This document shows positions 48,001 through 54,000 of a DNA stretch of 64,000 nucleotides, in pieces; within the stretch, counting starts at the first letter, position 1, and every line of letters starts with the position of its first letter. Origin of the DNA: Escherichia coli (GTDB lineage Bacteria > Pseudomonadota > Gammaproteobacteria > Enterobacterales > Enterobacteriaceae); NCBI RefSeq assembly GCF_030013205.1, contig NZ_CP122648.1; one strand, written 5' to 3'. Made by a program: the position numbers.

Positions 48001-51000
48001 GACGGTACCTGTTCCTGCGAAGTTTTTACGTGCTTCAAATGTACCGACTGGATTGCTTAATGAAATGATTGCTTATCTCAACTCGGAAGAACGCAATCAT
48101 CATAATTTTTCAGAACTTTTGCTTTTTTCTTGCCTGTCTATTTTTGCCGCATGCAAAGGTTTCATTACACTATTAACTAACGGTGTGCTATCCGTTTCTG
48201 GGAAAGTGAGAAATATTGTCAACATGAAGCTGGCGCACCCATGGAAGCTGAAAGATATTTGTGACTGCCTGTACATTAGTGAAAGCCTGTTGAAGAAAAA
48301 ACTAAAGCAAGAGCAAACGACATTCTCACAGATTCTTTTAGATGCCAGAATGCAGCACGCAAAAAATTTGATACGCGTAGAAGGTTCAGTCAATAAAATT
48401 GCCGAACAATGTGGTTATGCGAGTACATCTTATTTTATTTATGCGTTCCGCAAACATTTCGGCAACAGTCCAAAGAGAGTTTCTAAGGAGTACCGTTGTC
48501 AAAGGCACACCGGTATGAACACGGACAACACGATGAGTGCTTTAGCTATTTGATTATTTGCTAACGAGTAGTCAACCACACACGCTACGTAAGAATTAAA
48601 TGGGGCAGCCATTTCCTGCCCCGCGTTGTTTTTAGGCGATATATTTATTGAAATAAATAAGTGACATTCATCACATATTTATGCATTTGCATAACCCGTT
48701 GCATGATTATTTATGATCTCAATTCGGCATTTTGTCAGTAAAATACAATAATTTATTAAATATCAATAGATTAGTTGTTTATCATCGAGAAATTACTTAG
48801 TAGAATAGAAAGTAATGTCAACGCTTTATGGACTGTTATTTCCCTTTTTTTAGCTAAATCTGCTATCTCTTTATGTGACTAACTTCACTTACATTCACTT
48901 ATTTCTCTTCGTAAAATTACTTTGGAATTAAGTACAATAAGAAGAGGAACATTTATGAAGTCTGCATTAAAGAAAAGTGTCGTAAGTACCTCGATATCTT
49001 TGATACTGGCATCTGGTATGGCTGCATTTGCTGCTCATGCGGCAGATGATGTAAAGCTGAAAGCAACCAAAACAAACGTCGCTTTCTCAGACTTTACGCC
49101 GACTGAATACAGTACCAAAGGAAAGCCAAATATTATCGTACTGACTATGGATGATCTTGGTTATGGACAACTTCCTTTTGATAAGGGATCTTTTGACCCA
49201 AAAACAATGGAAAATCGTGAAGTTGTCGATACCTACAAAATAGGGATAGATAAAGCCATTGAAGCTGCACAAAAATCAACGCCGACGCTCCTTTCATTAA
49301 TGGATGAAGGCGTACGTTTTACTAACGGCTATGTGGCGCACGGTGTTTCCGGCCCCTCCCGCGCCGCAATAATGACCGGTCGAGCGCCCGCCCGCTTTGG
49401 TGTCTATTCCAATACCGATGCTCAGGATGGTATTCCGCTAACAGAAACTTTCTTGCCTGAATTATTCCAGAATCATGGTTATTACACTGCAGCAGTAGGT
49501 AAATGGCACTTGTCAAAAATCAGTAATGTGCCAGTACCGGAAGATAAACAAACGCGTGACTATCATGACAACTTCACCACATTTTCTGCGGAAGAATGGC
49601 AACCTCAAAACCGTGGCTTTGATTACTTTATGGGATTCCACGCTGCAGGAACGGCATATTACAACTCCCCTTCACTGTTCAAAAACCGTGAACGCGTCCC
49701 CGCAAAAGGTTATATCAGCGATCAGTTAACCGATGAGGCAATTGGCGTTGTTGATCGTGCCAAAACACTTGACCAGCCTTTTATGCTTTACCTGGCTTAT
49801 AATGCTCCGCACCTGCCAAATGATAATCCTGCACCGGAGCAATATCAGAAGCAATTTAATACTGGTAGTCAAACAGCAGATAACTACTACGCTTCCGTTT
49901 ATTCTGTTGATCAGGGTGTAAAACGCATTCTCGAACAACTGAAGAAAAACGGACAGTATGACAATACTATTATTCTCTTTACCTCCGATAATGGTGCGGT
50001 TATCGATGGTCCTCTGCCGCTGAACGGGGCGCAAAAAGGCTATAAGAGTCAGACTTATCCTGGCGGTACTCACACCCCAATGTTTATGTGGTGGAAAGGA
50101 AAACTTCAACCCGGTAATTATGACAAGCTGATTTCCGCAATGGATTTCTACCCGACAGCTCTTGATGCAGCCGATATCAGCATTCCAAAAGACCTTAAGC
50201 TGGATGGCGTTTCCTTGCTGCCCTGGTTGCAAGATAAGAAACAAGGCGAGCCACATAAAAATCTGACCTGGATAACCTCTTATTCTCACTGGTTTGATGA
50301 GGAAAATATTCCATTCTGGGATAATTACCACAAATTTGTCCGTCATCAGTCAGACGATTACCCGCATAACCCCAACACCGAGGACTTAAGCCAATTCTCT
50401 TATACGGTGAGAAATAACGATTATTCGCTAGTCTATACAGTAGAAAACAATCAGTTAGGTCTATACAAACTGACGGATCTACAGCAAAAAGATAACCTTG
50501 CCGCCGCCAATCCGCAGGTCGTTAAAGAGATGCAAGGCGTGGTAAGAGAGTTTATCGACAGCAGCCAACCACCGCTTAGCGAGGTAAATCAGGAGAAGTT
50601 TAACAATATCAAGAAAGCACTAAGCGAAGCGAAATAACTAAACCTTCATGCGGCGGATTTTTCCGCCGCCTTATTGAGCGAGATAGCGATGCACGTTACA
50701 GCCAAGCCCTCCAGTTTTCAATGTAATCTCAAATGTGATTACTGTTTTTACCTTGAAAAAGAGTCGCAGTTTACTCATGAAAAATGGATGGATGACAGCA
50801 CTCTGAAAGAGTTCATCAAACAATATATCGCAGCGTCTGGCAATCAGGTCTATTTTACCTGGCAAGGCGGTGAACCCACTCTGGCTGGCCTGGATTTTTT
50901 CCGTAAAGTTATTCACTATCAACAACGCTATGCAGGCCAAAAACGTATTTTTAATGCATTACAAACGAATGGCATTTTATTGAATAATGAATGGTGTGCC

Positions 51001-54000
51001 TTTCTCAAAGAACATGAGTTTCTGGTTGGTATTTCGATCGATGGCCCCCAAGAACTACATGACCGTTACAGACGCAGTAATTCAGGTAACGGTACTTTTG
51101 TAAAAGTGATAGCAGCCATCGAGCGTCTGAAATCTTATCAAGTAGAGTTTAATACGTTAACCGTCATTAATAACGTTAATGTCCATTACCCTCTTGAGGT
51201 TTATCATTTTTTAAAATCTATCGGCAGTAAACATATGCAATTTATCGAATTGCTCGAAACCGGGACGCCGAATATTGATTTCAGTGGTCATAGTGAGAAC
51301 ACATTCCGTATCATTGATTTTTCTGTGCCTCCTACGGCTTATGGCAAGTTTATGTCGACCATTTTTATGCAATGGGTTAAAAACGATGTGGGTGAAATTT
51401 TCATCCGTCAGTTTGAAAGCTTTGTCAGCCGTTTTTTGGGGAATGGGCATACCAGTTGTATTTTCCAGGAGTCCTGCAAGGATAATCTGGTTGTTGAAAG
51501 TAATGGAGACATTTACGAATGCGACCATTTTGTCTATCCACAGTACAAAATTGGAAACATTAATAAATCTGAACTCAAAACGATGAACAGTGTTCAACTG
51601 ACAGCGCAAAAAAAACGGATTTCAGCGAAATGTCAGCAATGTGCATATAAACCTATCTGCAATGGCGGTTGTCCTAAGCATCGTATTACTAAAGTAAACA
51701 ATGAGACTGTTTCCTATTTTTGTGAAGGTTATAAAATCCTTTTTTCAACCATGGTACCTTATATGAACGCCATGGTGGAGTTAGCTAAGAACAGAGTACC
51801 GCTTTACCACATCATGGATGTTGCAAGACAAATGGAGAATAATTAATAACGCTCCCTCTTAGCTCCAGTCTTAGCCTCCTTCTTATGACCTTAACAATGC
51901 ACCTGACACATATTCCTGTCGGGTGTTTCGTCATCATCATCTTCCCTTGCGAAAATCCTGGCTTACGTGGTATGCGTCAGGGCATTAGCAATATCCTTGA
52001 TTATCAATAGCATAACCATAACCACTGAAAATGAAATATTCCTTTATATTTCATATTGTTAAATGATACTTAAATAAATTTCATCAGTAAATCATTGCCA
52101 TAGATAATCATTGGATGGCACAATCAATTTTCGCTAATGATAACCATTCCCATTACGTTTTGTATGTTGATAGCAAAGTATCTCTGTCTGCTGAAGCCCT
52201 TTTGGCTGCGTAAGAATAATAAAACTTCAGTGCTGTTAATCATTATTATCCTCGCCATGATCCTTGGCGTTGTTAAAATTCAGGTCTGGTTAAACGACTG
52301 GAATAATGATTTTTTCAATGCGCTAAGCCAGAAAGAAACCGATAAGCTTTGGCAGCTTGTTCTTTGGTTCCCTGCCCTGCTGGGGATCTTTGTATTAATA
52401 TCCGTAAACAAAACATGGTTAATTAAACTACTGACTATTCGCTGGCGCGAATGGTTAACAGATTACTACCTTAATCGCTGGTTTGCAGATAAAAACTACT
52501 ACTTCACGCAAATCTACGGCGAGCATAAAAATACAGATAACCCTGACCAACGTATCGCTGAGGACATTCTCTTGCTGATCAGTAAAACGCTCAGCCTTTC
52601 ATTTGGCTTCATCCAGTCGCTTAGCATGCTGATCACCTTTACCGTTATTCTTTGGCAAAGCGCGGGTACGCTCTCATTCACTGTTGGTGGAACAGAATGG
52701 AATATCCAGGGGTATATGGTCTATACCGTCGTGCTCATTGTGATCGGTGGAACTTTATTTACTCATAAGGTGGGTAAACGTATTCGTCCGCTTAATGTGG
52801 AAAAACAACGTAGCGAAGCGACATTTCGAACTAATCTTGTGCAGCATAATAAGCAGGCTGAACTGATTGCGCTAAGCAATGCTGAGTCTCTACAACGCCA
52901 GGAGTTGAGCGACAATTTTCATACCATTAAAGAGAACTGGCATCGTTTAATGAATCGTCAGCGCTGGCTTGATTACTGGCAGAATATTTATTCGCGCTCG
53001 CTTAGCGTTCTTCCCTACTTTCTGTTATTGCCACAGTTTATTAGCGGACAGATCAATCTGGGCGGACTGATGAAATCGCGCCAGGCATTTATGCTGGTAT
53101 CGAACAATTTAAGCTGGTTTATTTATAAATATGACGAACTTGCTGAACTGGCTGCGGTTATCGATCGTTTGTATGAGTTCCATCAACTCACCGAACAGCG
53201 CCCTACGAATAAGCCTAAAAATTGCCAACATGCGGTACAAGTGGCTGACGCGAGTATTCGGGTAATGACTCCAACTTACTGATAGTGTTTTATGTTCAGA
53301 TAATGCCCGATGACCTTGTCATGCAGCTCCACCGATTTTGAGAACGACAGTGACTTCCGTCCCAGCCTTGCCAGATGTTGTCTCAGATTCAGGTTATGCC
53401 GCTCAATGCGCTGAGTATAACGCTTGCTGATAACGTGCAGCTTTCCCTTCAGGCGTGATTCATACAGCGGCCAGCCATCCGTCATCCATACCACGACCTC
53501 AAAGGCCGACAGCAGGCTCAGAAGACGCTCCAGTGTGGCCAGAGTGCGTTCACCGAAGACGTGCGCCACAACCGTCCTCCGCATCCTGTCATACGCGTAA
53601 AACAGCCAGCGCTGACGTGATTTAGCACCGACGTAGCCCCACTGTTCGTCCATTTCAGCGCAGACAATCACATCACTGCCCGGTTGTATGCGCGAGGTTA
53701 CCGACTGCGGCCTGAGTTTTTTAAGTGGCGGAAAATCGTGTTGAGGCCAACGCCAATAATGCGTGCACTGGCGCGACATCCGACGCCATTCATGGCCATA
53801 TCAATGATTTTCTGGTGCGTACCGGGCTGAGAGGCGGCGTAAGTGAACTGTAGTTGCCATGTTTTACGGCAGTGAGAGCAGAGATAGCGCTGATGTCCGG
53901 CGGTGCTTTTGCCGTTACGCACCACCCCGTCAGTAGCTGAACAGGAGGGACAGCTGATAGAAACAGAAGCCACTGGAGCACCTCAAAAACACCATCATAC

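What the first reader, a model, noticed from the sequence alone, without database searches (positions are those of the whole stretch)
48955..51846. Ser-type sulfatase YdeN paired with radical-SAM maturase YdeM
YdeN has the sulfatase signature with Ser in the formylglycine position (SGPSRAAIMTGR), which needs an anSME-type maturase. YdeM immediately downstream has the CxxxCxxC and C-terminal Cys-cluster motifs. The pair lies next to the EvgA-controlled safA-ydeO genes, and its natural substrate is unknown.
Basis: partly seen in the sequence, partly recalled or inferred. Interest (0 to 1): 0.35.

Follow-up and report, generated by a model that had tools for sequence, protein, structure and literature searches.

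The report
E. coli ydeN–ydeM sulfatase and maturase
This is the already annotated E. coli ydeN–ydeM pair, a periplasmic sulfatase whose active-site serine must be converted by the radical-SAM enzyme encoded next to it; the description is correct, but only the enzyme's natural substrate is still unknown.

Summary
ydeN (48955-50637) encodes a 560-aa S1 sulfatase with SGPSRAAIMTGR at residues 132-143. ydeM (50689-51846) encodes a 385-aa anaerobic sulfatase maturase with C12-x3-C16-x2-C19 and all eight auxiliary-cluster cysteines.

The window is E. coli chromosome. The pair is present in 5373 of 5426 complete genomes and is annotated in K-12 as b1498/b1497, so it is already known.

What I can add:
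- Ser132 is invariant in orthologues from eight genera, while 44 of 50 more distant relatives have Cys.
- A YdeM orthologue lies directly downstream in six of six loci from other genera, with unrelated and often mobile flanks. A stem-loop always sits between the two genes.
- Both genes are under strong purifying selection (dN/dS 0.015 and 0.05).
- The closest solved relatives are S1_19 and S1_16 galactose-4-sulfate sulfatases, at only 26-29% identity.
- The pair is separated from ydeO by a terminator. Published data show it is repressed by GadX and at pH 4.4, and bound by CRP and AraC, which is the opposite of its acid-induced neighbours.

No substrate has been reported. A sulfated sugar is the best guess.

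The parts
48955..50637 (+). ydeN CDS: 560-aa S1 (formylglycine-dependent) sulfatase precursor
   Evidence: ORF. RefSeq annotates ydeN at the same position. Pfam Sulfatase E 1.3e-70. One amino-acid difference from K-12 (E295D). AF2 model pLDDT 92.2 with an S1 sulfatase fold.
48955..49041 (+). Predicted Sec-type signal peptide (residues 1-29, MKSALKK...AAHA|ADD), with no twin-arginine motif
   Evidence: Read from the sequence: basic N-terminus, hydrophobic core, AHA-A cleavage-like site. AF2 gives a lone helix at 7-24 with low confidence. PMC10746267 lists YdeN as periplasmic. No signal-peptide predictor was available.
49042..49119 (+). N-terminal extension specific to the YdeN clade (residues 30-55, ...KATKTNVAFSDFTPTEYS...), nearly invariant in orthologues
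   Evidence: One search gives the invariant columns 37-52. One search shows 26 residues in all 8 clade members against a median of 9 in 50 outgroups. AF2 confidence is low here. Function unknown.
49348..49383 (+). Sulfatase signature SGPSRAAIMTGR. Ser132 (TCC, 49348-49350) is the residue to be converted to formylglycine.
   Evidence: Ser132, Pro134 and Arg136 are invariant in 17 orthologues. Cys occupies this column in 44 of 50 more distant relatives.
50650..50669 (+). Intercistronic stem-loop GCGGCGGA-UUUU-UCCGCCGC (8 bp) between the ydeN stop and the ydeM start
   Evidence: -19.3 kcal/mol for the 71-nt context, z -2.1; a stem-loop of unrelated sequence sits at the same position in all six orthologous loci. 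Its role (leaky terminator or 3' stabiliser) is inferred.
50689..51846 (+). ydeM CDS: 385-aa anaerobic sulfatase-maturating enzyme (radical SAM / SPASM)
   Evidence: TIGR03942 503.5 bits against a cut-off of 349.45. Pfam Radical_SAM and SPASM. E 1.3e-62 to the anSME of PDB 4K36 over residues 4-359. Three amino-acid differences from K-12.
50722..50745 (+). Radical-SAM cluster motif C12-x3-C16-x2-C19
   Evidence: Aligned with the CNLKCTYC motif of 4K36.
51457..51723 (+). SPASM region with the eight auxiliary-cluster cysteines (C257, C263, C278, C315, C318, C324, C328, C345) and Asp279
   Evidence: One search gives the positions. In the alignment each Cys, and the Cys-Asp pair, aligns with a Cys (or Cys-Asp) of the solved anSME.
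48601..48633 (+). Terminator-like hairpin and T-run after ydeO, separating ydeO from ydeN
   Evidence: 8-bp stem with 6 GC pairs, followed by CGTTGTTTTT. Conserved in K-12.
48660..48675 (.). CRP site AGTGACATTCATCACA, 291 bp upstream of the ydeN ATG
   Evidence: It corresponds to the K-12 site centred at 1582815 (taTGTGAtggatgTCACTtat, estimated Kd 1.8 nM) in Footprint-seq (PMC12871828). ydeN is also a CRP genomic-SELEX target (PMC3105977).
48874..48889 (.). Second CRP-like site TGTGACTAACTTCACT (my prediction), just upstream of a promoter-like -35/-10 at 48888-48917
   Evidence: only 5 sites with at most 1 mismatch in 64 kb, and 2 of them are in this 400-bp spacer. One search gives the promoter-like hexamers, a consensus scan only. 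Identical in K-12. Not shown experimentally.
48942..48949 (+). Shine-Dalgarno AAGAGGAA, 5 nt before the ydeN ATG
   Evidence: Read from the sequence.
51812..51934 (-). yneP, a 40-aa small protein gene on the opposite strand that overlaps the last 35 nt of ydeM
   Evidence: Annotated in K-12 and RefSeq. Intact here. Pfam YneP 94.7 bits. A neighbour, with no evidence that it belongs to the system.

Best explanation
The locus is a two-gene operon that makes a periplasmic sulfate-ester hydrolase together with its own activating enzyme.

Proposed sequence of events:
1. YdeN is made as a precursor with a Sec-type signal peptide.
2. While it is still unfolded in the cytoplasm, YdeM binds the SGPSR segment. 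YdeM is a radical-SAM enzyme with one SAM-cleaving [4Fe-4S] cluster and two auxiliary [4Fe-4S] clusters.
3. YdeM abstracts a C-beta hydrogen from Ser132 with a 5'-deoxyadenosyl radical and oxidises the serine to C-alpha-formylglycine.
4. The precursor is then exported.
5. In the periplasm the hydrated formylglycine acts as the nucleophile. It is held in place by a divalent metal (D66, D67, D345, N346) and by R136, K183, H185, H286 and K364, and it removes sulfate from a substrate.

What is shown here:
- the domain identities, motifs and fold;
- invariance of the catalytic residues and of Ser132;
- strict linkage of the two genes across genera;
- purifying selection on both genes.

What is inferred from knowledge of the families: the chemistry, the order of maturation and export, and the location.

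What comes from published data: the promoter is bound by CRP and AraC and repressed by GadX and by strong acid.

My best guess for the substrate (about 45%) is a sulfated sugar or small oligosaccharide, possibly galactose- or N-acetylgalactosamine-4-sulfate-like. Other gut microbes would release it from host mucin, glycosaminoglycans or dietary galactans, and E. coli would use it as a secondary carbon source.
For: Identity and motifs.

Fold: the AF2 model has pLDDT 92.2. The best PDB matches are S1 sulfatases with TM 0.80-0.82 normalised to the target.

Catalytic residues: D66, D67, R136, H185, D345 and K364 are invariant, and K183, N346 and H286 nearly invariant, in 58 relatives down to 27% identity.

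Ser-type clade: Ser132 is invariant in the 17 sequences aligned (this one plus orthologues at 69-84% identity) from Escherichia, Leminorella, Salmonella, Citrobacter, Yersinia, Proteus, Aeromonas, Shewanella, Iodobacter and Anaerobiospirillum-like genomes.

Coupling: a YdeM orthologue (53-68% identity) starts 43-223 nt downstream of the sulfatase in 6 of 6 loci from other genera. No other neighbour is shared.

Selection: dN/dS is 0.015 (ydeN) and 0.05 (ydeM) against K-12. Between genera synonymous sites are saturated while pN is 0.10-0.17 for ydeN. The pair is present in 5373 of 5426 complete E. coli genomes.

Expression and regulation, from the literature:
- ydeM is co-transcribed with ydeN, and ydeN is a direct AraC target (PMC10878103).
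- AraC binds upstream of ydeN only with arabinose (PMC3738151).
- GadX binding lowers the transcript (PMC4918353).
- At pH 4.4 ydeN falls by log2 -5.31 (RNA) and -5.05 (ribosome footprints), alongside malE, xylF and treC (PMC10746267).
- CRP binds.

Substrate lead: the best sequence and fold matches are S1_19 kappa/iota-carrageenan galactose-4-sulfatases, then S1_16. These rank ahead of the GlcNAc-6-sulfatase BT4656 suggested in the literature: 181 bits against 109 bits.
Against: No enzymatic activity, formylglycine or substrate has ever been shown for YdeN. A 2024 paper says so.

The Klebsiella Ser-type sulfatase needed co-expressed atsB to become active in E. coli (Szameit 1999; Benjdia 2007). 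This suggests YdeM is silent, oxygen-inactivated or selective under those conditions. Against that, a Ser-type metagenomic sulfatase was active in E. coli without an added maturase (PMC8379841).

The substrate guess rests on relatives that are only 26-29% identical and lack the 33-aa insert (residues 76-108) and the N-terminal extension of YdeN.

The AraC result is known to me only through secondary citations, and I could not locate a convincing AraC site.

No transporter or sugar-catabolic gene travels with the cassette, so genomic context says nothing about the substrate.
Confidence: 0.85

Rival explanations
1. Same enzyme pair, but the natural substrates are small sulfate conjugates rather than sugars. 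Candidates are aryl, steroid, bile-acid or xenobiotic sulfates in the gut. YdeN would then act as an endobiotic or xenobiotic arylsulfatase.
For: ydeN was the only gene significantly induced by the sulfonated azo dye FD&C Red 40 in E. coli (PMC10653809). Gut-microbial sulfatases 6USS and 6UST are among the PDB matches: 127 and 106 bits, Foldseek E 1e-28 to 1e-30. No sugar transporter or glycosidase is linked to the cassette.
Against: The closest relatives by sequence and fold are carbohydrate sulfatases. CRP and AraC control, and co-regulation with mal, xyl and tre genes, look like sugar catabolism. The delta-ydeN strain had normal dye depletion. A sulfonate is not a sulfate ester.
Confidence: 0.25
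2. Sulfur scavenging. Like Klebsiella and Pseudomonas AtsA, YdeN would release inorganic sulfate from esters when sulfate and cysteine are scarce.
For: The architecture matches Klebsiella atsA/atsB: a Ser-type periplasmic sulfatase plus a radical-SAM maturase (family knowledge).
Against: All the regulation found in the literature concerns carbon or acid (CRP, AraC, GadX, pH). None of the papers I could read that mention ydeN links it to sulfur limitation. This is absence of evidence, not a test.
Confidence: 0.08
3. The pair is a cryptic or decaying remnant with no current function in E. coli.
For: No activity has been reported in decades of work on K-12 (own knowledge). GC content is low: 44% in ydeN, 39% in ydeM and 31% upstream, against 47.6% for the window. 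This suggests horizontally acquired DNA that may be silenced.
Against: Both reading frames are intact in 5322 of 5426 genomes at 80% coverage or more. dN/dS is 0.015 and 0.05. All catalytic and cluster residues are retained. ydeN is translated at neutral pH, as the ribosome footprints fall 33-fold at pH 4.4. ydeM is up-regulated in the mouse gut in a delta-araC background.
Confidence: 0.05
4. YdeN is not a sulfatase but another alkaline-phosphatase-superfamily hydrolase, such as a phosphonate monoester hydrolase or phosphodiesterase, that also uses formylglycine.
For: There are weak extra Pfam hits to Phosphodiest (E 1.3e-7) and a weak NCBIfam hit to PehA. Some S1 members are phosphonate monoester hydrolases (listed in PMC5066984).
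Against: The Sulfatase model scores far higher (238.6 bits against 32). All top sequence and fold neighbours are sulfatases.
Confidence: 0.02

Closest known systems
E. coli K-12 ydeN (b1498) / ydeM (b1497)
   Same: It is the same locus. Nucleotide identity over the 2892 bp is 98.76%, with 1 (YdeN) and 3 (YdeM) amino-acid differences. The neighbours are the same: ydeP-safA-ydeO upstream, and yneP, yddA, yddB and pqqL downstream.
   Different: Allelic differences only. In this strain the downstream yddA is split by an IS1.
Klebsiella pneumoniae AtsA/AtsB (Ser-type arylsulfatase and its radical-SAM maturase)
   Same: The logic is the same: a periplasmic Ser-type sulfatase whose serine is oxidised in the cytoplasm by an adjacent three-cluster radical-SAM enzyme (family knowledge; review PMC7771511).
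   Different: I did not compare the sequences directly. Klebsiella atsBA is known as a sulfur- and tyramine-regulated arylsulfatase system (own knowledge). For ydeNM the published regulators are CRP, AraC and GadX.
Clostridium perfringens anSME (PDB 4K36-4K39)
   Same: YdeM aligns over residues 4-359 at E 1.3e-62. The CX3CX2C motif, all eight auxiliary-cluster Cys and the Cys-Asp pair are conserved.
   Different: The clostridial enzyme's native partner is a Cys-type sulfatase, while YdeM's partner has Ser. From my own knowledge, anSMEs accept both in vitro.
E. coli AslA/AslB
   Same: A second pair in the same genome. AslA is also Ser-type (SSPTRATILTG at residue 136) with an N-terminal signal-like sequence. 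AslB is a full-length anSME, 41% identical to YdeM.
   Different: AslA is only 27% identical to YdeN, and the two genes are convergent rather than tandem.
SulfAtlas S1_19 carrageenan galactose-4-sulfatases (ZgCgsA 9HH2, PsS1_19A 6B0J/6BIA, PsS1_19B 6PSM), then S1_16
   Same: These are the best sequence matches (181-150 bits) and fold matches (TM 0.80-0.82 on the target) in the PDB. The catalytic residues are the same.
   Different: Identity is only 26-29%. They are Cys-type. They lack YdeN's 33-residue insert (76-108), its 26-residue N-terminal extension and part of residues 445-480. They come from marine polysaccharide-utilisation loci, not a two-gene cassette. No solved structure belongs to the YdeN clade.

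Membership tests
S1 formylglycine-dependent sulfatases (Pfam PF00884) | Sulfatase domain profile above the curated threshold | tested here: met
   238.6 bits against a cut-off of 25, residues 58-408 covering the whole profile.
S1 formylglycine-dependent sulfatases (Pfam PF00884) | Signature (C/S)-x-(P/A)-x-R followed by xxxTG | tested here: met
   S132-G-P-S-R136-AAIMTGR. Invariant in orthologues.
S1 formylglycine-dependent sulfatases (Pfam PF00884) | Metal-binding Asp/Asp/Asp/Asn and catalytic Arg, Lys, His, His, Lys | tested here: met
   D66, D67, R136, H185, D345 and K364 are invariant, and K183, N346 and H286 are at 90% or more, in 58 relatives. Assigning these to their canonical roles is by homology.
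S1 formylglycine-dependent sulfatases (Pfam PF00884) | Alkaline-phosphatase-like S1 fold | tested here: met
   AF2 pLDDT 92.2. The top 50 Foldseek PDB matches are all S1 sulfatases, E down to 3e-35.
S1 formylglycine-dependent sulfatases (Pfam PF00884) | Formylglycine actually present, and sulfate-ester hydrolysis | not testable with these tools
   This needs mass spectrometry and enzyme assays. None has been reported.
Ser-type (periplasmic, anSME-dependent) sulfatases | Ser at the formylglycine position | tested here: met
   Ser132, codon TCC. Ser in 17 of 17 aligned sequences. Cys in 44 of 50 outgroups.
Ser-type (periplasmic, anSME-dependent) sulfatases | Export signal | tested here: inconclusive
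   A Sec-like N-terminus is seen by inspection, and the literature lists the protein as periplasmic. No signal-peptide predictor was available.
Ser-type (periplasmic, anSME-dependent) sulfatases | Genetically linked radical-SAM maturase | tested here: met
   ydeM starts 51 nt downstream. Linkage is kept in 6 of 6 loci from other genera.
Anaerobic sulfatase-maturating enzymes (NCBIfam TIGR03942) | Equivalog profile above the trusted cut-off | tested here: met
   503.5 bits against 349.45, residues 2-364 on profile positions 1-362 of 363.
Anaerobic sulfatase-maturating enzymes (NCBIfam TIGR03942) | CX3CX2C radical-SAM cluster motif | tested here: met
   C12, C16, C19.
Anaerobic sulfatase-maturating enzymes (NCBIfam TIGR03942) | Eight Cys ligating two auxiliary [4Fe-4S] clusters (SPASM) and the active-site Asp next to the third of them | tested here: met
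   C257, C263, C278-D279, C315, C318, C324, C328 and C345 each align with a Cys (or Cys-Asp) of PDB 4K36. Pfam SPASM 27.6 bits.
Anaerobic sulfatase-maturating enzymes (NCBIfam TIGR03942) | Converts Ser132 of YdeN to formylglycine | not testable with these tools
   Biochemical question. Only inferred, from linkage and family.
SulfAtlas subfamily S1_19 (carrageenan Gal-4-sulfatases) | Placement inside the subfamily clade, with shared substrate-binding architecture | tested here: inconclusive
   These are the best PDB neighbours, but at only 26-29% identity. YdeN has a clade-specific insert and extension, and Ser instead of Cys. SulfAtlas profiles are not available here. I do not file YdeN as S1_19.
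EvgA/YdeO acid-resistance transcription unit (safA-ydeO) | Co-transcription or co-induction with safA-ydeO | tested here: not met
   A terminator-like hairpin follows ydeO, and a 401-bp spacer with its own CRP site lies between the genes. The literature shows repression by GadX and at pH 4.4.

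The most novel reading that the evidence does not exclude
The YdeN clade is an isolated Ser-type subfamily of S1 sulfatases with no solved structure and no known substrate. It is at least 69% identical within the clade and at most 45% identical to anything else.

It travels among gut-associated Proteobacteria as a self-contained sulfatase-hairpin-maturase cassette. In E. coli it would be a catabolite-controlled enzyme that removes a specific sulfate (galactose- or GalNAc-4-sulfate-like) from host or dietary glycan fragments released by other microbes. That would give E. coli a cross-feeding route nobody has characterised.

The invariant N-terminal extension and the conserved intercistronic hairpin would be functional parts of the cassette, serving as a maturation or export handle and as a control on stoichiometry.
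Probability: 0.3. Interest if true: 0.45.

Novelty: already known. Interest (0 to 1): 0.2.

Why it matters
The gene pair and its predicted roles have been in the E. coli annotation and the sulfatase literature for decades, so the finding adds nothing new.

The remaining open question is small but real. The best-studied bacterium carries a near-universal, strongly conserved periplasmic sulfatase with a dedicated maturase, and nobody knows what it hydrolyses.

Sulfatases control access to mucin and glycosaminoglycans in the gut (PMC7771511). A defined substrate would therefore clarify how E. coli feeds in the intestine. A mouse-gut adaptation study has already pointed at ydeMN (PMC10878103).

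The leads gathered here make that experiment easier to design:
- the nearest characterised relatives are Gal-4-sulfatases rather than GlcNAc-6-sulfatases;
- control is by CRP, AraC and GadX;
- the cassette is mobile between genera.

Tried and rejected
1. The first structure prediction, from the 17-sequence orthologue alignment, failed (pLDDT 46.8). It was redone with a 58-sequence alignment that included distant relatives (pLDDT 92.2).

2. I looked for the AraC site upstream of ydeN. Scanning for TAGC-N7-TCCATA half-sites gave only weak matches of 6-7 of 10 positions. These include GGAAATAACAGTCCATA at 48827-48843 (minus strand) and TAGCAGATTTAGCTAAA at 48849-48865 (minus strand). Window-wide, such matches are no more frequent than chance. 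The site is not located.

3. The primary papers on AraC-ydeNM (Stringer 2014, PMC3911152) and on aslB/ydeM deletion mutants (Benjdia 2007) are not held. I rely on secondary citations and my own recollection, and I mark them as such.

4. The SulfAtlas paper does not mention YdeN, so the subfamily assignment is left open.

5. An Rfam scan of 47200-52400 returned only a sub-threshold isrK hit (20.3 bits against a gathering score of 50, E 0.36), which I reject as chance.

6. The long antisense ORFs inside ydeN (206 aa) and ydeM (132 aa) have no Pfam match and are not annotated anywhere. I treat them as mechanical ORFs.

7. Gene neighbourhood gave no clue to the substrate, because nothing besides the maturase is conserved around the sulfatase.

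8. I considered that the pair might belong to the EvgA/YdeO acid island and rejected this (see the membership test).

Full report
**What is there.** The window is Escherichia coli chromosome.
- The 2892 bases of the finding match 5373 of 5426 complete E. coli genomes. They are 100% identical to porcine O139:H1 and ETEC strains, and RefSeq annotates them as ydeN ('sulfatase-like hydrolase/transferase') and ydeM ('anaerobic sulfatase maturase').
- Against K-12 MG1655 (b1498, b1497) the stretch is 98.76% identical, with one amino-acid change in YdeN and three in YdeM.
- The finding's coordinates are exact. 48955 is the ydeN ATG and 51846 is the last base of the ydeM stop.
- The gene order is ydeP, safA, ydeO, ydeN, ydeM, (yneP on the other strand), yddA, yddB, pqqL, as in K-12.

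**YdeN.**
- Pfam Sulfatase matches residues 58-408 at E 1.3e-70.
- The signature SGPSRAAIMTGR is at residues 132-143, with Ser132 (TCC) at the formylglycine position.
- The N-terminus (MKSALKKSVVSTSISLILASGMAAFAAHA/ADD) looks like a Sec signal with no twin arginine. A ribosome-profiling paper lists the protein as periplasmic.
- In 58 relatives reaching down to 27% identity, D66, D67, R136, H185, D345 and K364 are invariant. K183, N346 and H286 are nearly so. By homology these are the metal ligands and catalytic residues of S1 sulfatases.
- A first AlphaFold run on a shallow alignment failed (pLDDT 46.8). A second run on the diverse alignment gave pLDDT 92.2.
- The best PDB fold matches are S1_19 carrageenan galactose-4-sulfatases: 6PSM, 9HH2/9HH3, 6B0J and 6BIA, with TM 0.80-0.82 on the target and 26-29% identity. 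S1_16 follows. The sequence search gives the same order.
- The GlcNAc-6-sulfatase BT4656, proposed as a relative in a 2024 paper, is more distant: 109 bits against 181.

**YdeM.**
- It passes the NCBIfam equivalog model for anaerobic sulfatase maturase (503.5 bits, cut-off 349.45).
- It aligns over residues 4-359 with the solved Clostridium perfringens anSME (E 1.3e-62).
- C12-x3-C16-x2-C19 is the radical-SAM motif. C257, C263, C278, C315, C318, C324, C328 and C345 each align with a cysteine of the solved anSME, and D279 aligns with the Asp that follows the third of them.
- The mechanism follows from what is established for this family (review PMC7771511). A 5'-deoxyadenosyl radical abstracts a C-beta hydrogen from the target Ser or Cys, and electrons leave through the auxiliary clusters. 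It is inferred for YdeM, not shown.

**Evidence that the two genes work together.**
- YdeN orthologues are unusually conserved: 69-84% identity across Leminorella, Salmonella, Citrobacter, Dryocola, Yersinia, Proteus, Shewanella, Aeromonas, Iodobacter and Anaerobiospirillum-like genomes. Ser132 is invariant in all 17 sequences aligned.
- The clade is isolated. In a library clustered at 50% identity it collapses to two intact full-length representatives (the other near-identical hits are gene-call fusions or fragments), and the next relatives are at most 45% identical.
- Of 50 such outgroups, 44 have Cys at the formylglycine position. The clade is therefore a Ser-type branch of a mostly Cys-type family.
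- In six loci from six other genera, a YdeM orthologue (53-68% identical) starts 43-223 nt after the sulfatase stop. No other neighbour is shared. The flanks often hold transposases, integrases or conjugation genes. The pair behaves as a self-contained, horizontally mobile cassette.
- Within E. coli, dN/dS against K-12 is 0.015 for ydeN and 0.05 for ydeM. Between genera synonymous sites are saturated while pN is 0.10-0.17 for ydeN. The genes are being maintained.

**Surroundings and regulation.**
- A terminator-like hairpin with a T-run follows ydeO (48601-48633).
- The 401-bp ydeO-ydeN spacer is 31% G+C. It contains two of the five CRP-consensus sites (at most one mismatch) found in the whole 64-kb window.
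- The distal site (48660-48675) is the K-12 site bound by CRP with an estimated Kd of 1.8 nM in Footprint-seq (PMC12871828). ydeN is also a CRP genomic-SELEX target (PMC3105977).
- The proximal site (48874-48889) abuts promoter-like hexamers and is my prediction only.
- Published work reports that AraC binds upstream of ydeN only with arabinose (PMC3738151) and that a delta-araC strain over-expresses ydeMN (PMC10878103 citing Stringer 2014).
- GadX binding lowers the ydeN transcript (PMC4918353).
- ydeN is among the most strongly down-regulated genes at pH 4.4, together with malE, xylF and treC (PMC10746267).
- So the pair sits next to the EvgA-activated safA-ydeO-ydeP genes but is regulated in the opposite direction, like a secondary carbon-source gene. 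I could not locate the AraC site.

**What it most likely does.**
- The core model (confidence about 0.85): cytoplasmic YdeM converts Ser132 of the unfolded YdeN precursor to formylglycine, YdeN is exported, and it hydrolyses a sulfate ester in the periplasm.
- The substrate is unknown. I favour a sulfated sugar or small oligosaccharide (about 45%), because the nearest characterised relatives are carbohydrate 4-O-sulfatases and the regulation resembles sugar catabolism.
- A small aryl, steroid or xenobiotic sulfate is the main rival (about 25%). ydeN was the only gene induced by the sulfonated dye Red 40.
- Sulfur scavenging, a cryptic remnant and a non-sulfatase activity are less likely. The reasons are in the rival list.
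- The main caveat is that no activity has ever been shown. From my own recollection of papers I could not open, laboratory E. coli neither shows arylsulfatase activity nor matures the Klebsiella Ser-type enzyme without atsB. One paper, however, reports an active Ser-type metagenomic sulfatase made in E. coli without an added maturase.

**Comparison with what is known, and verdict.**
- This is the known ydeN-ydeM pair. It works like Klebsiella AtsA/AtsB and like E. coli's own AslA/AslB.
- AslA is also Ser-type (SSPTR), and AslB is 41% identical to YdeM. The third paralogue, YidJ, is Cys-type with no signal sequence. Nearby lies YidF, a 165-aa anSME-like fragment without the CX3CX2C motif.
- New but modest points from this analysis:
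  - the invariance of Ser in an isolated clade;
  - the cassette's mobility;
  - a stem-loop between the two genes in every orthologous locus;
  - a clade-specific invariant N-terminal extension;
  - a better substrate lead than the one in the literature.
- Interest 0.2; novelty: already known.

Noticed in passing
window 53261-54028: A complete 768-bp IS1 interrupts yddA (the ABC transporter of the yddA-yddB-pqqL import system), with an 8-bp target duplication AGTATTCG. The otherwise identical strain W13-16 has an intact 1686-bp yddA, so the insertion looks recent.
   Followed up: partly
window 50650-50669; L003, L004, L007, L008, L009, L010 at the same position: A GC-rich stem-loop lies between the sulfatase stop and the maturase start in E. 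coli and in all six orthologous loci. The sequences are unrelated. In the Anaerobiospirillum-like locus it is followed by a T-run. It may be a leaky terminator or 3' stabiliser that gives more sulfatase than maturase.
   Followed up: partly
window 49042-49119 (YdeN residues 30-55): A 26-residue segment directly after the signal peptide (…KATKTNVAFSDFTPTEYS…) is nearly invariant in the YdeN clade and absent from the 50 outgroups. AlphaFold gives it low confidence. Its function is unknown.
   Followed up: partly
L005 2615-5544, L006 1497-4426: 114 of 5426 E. coli genomes carry a second, accessory copy: a porin gene immediately followed by a YdeN paralogue (77% identical, also SGPSR). There are 13 copies on plasmids. 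No YdeM homologue is nearby, so it would depend on a chromosomal maturase. A porin also lies upstream of the Aeromonas cassette (32% identical to the E. coli one).
   Followed up: partly
window 51812-51934 (minus strand): The small protein gene yneP (40 aa, Pfam YneP 94.7 bits) overlaps the last 35 nt of ydeM on the opposite strand and is intact here.
   Followed up: yes
window 48660-48675 and 48874-48889: Two CRP-consensus sites lie in the 401-bp ydeO-ydeN spacer. The first matches a published high-affinity site 291 bp upstream of the ATG, which implies a long leader or a distal promoter. The second is unreported as far as I could see.
   Followed up: partly
L011 959-4008 and L012 3115-6405 (K-12): In K-12, AslA is also a Ser-type sulfatase (SSPTR) with the full anSME AslB alongside. 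YidJ is Cys-type (CTPAR) without a signal peptide. Nearby, separated from yidJ by yidG, yidH and yidI, is YidF, a 165-aa anSME-like fragment lacking the CX3CX2C motif.
   Followed up: yes
L003, L004, L008, L010: Outside E. coli the sulfatase-maturase cassette sits next to IS elements (Yersinia, Aeromonas), an integrase within phage-like genes (Proteus-type), or an integrase-TraI-helicase element (Salmonella). This indicates horizontal spread. A Y. pestis study lists YPO0841-0843 'ydeMN' among loci up-regulated in vivo (PMC3968184).
   Followed up: partly
window 47520-51846: G+C is low across safA (38%), ydeO (39%), the spacer (31%), ydeN (44%) and ydeM (39%), against 47.6% for the window and 50% for ydeP. 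This is consistent with acquired, possibly H-NS-silenced DNA.
   Followed up: no
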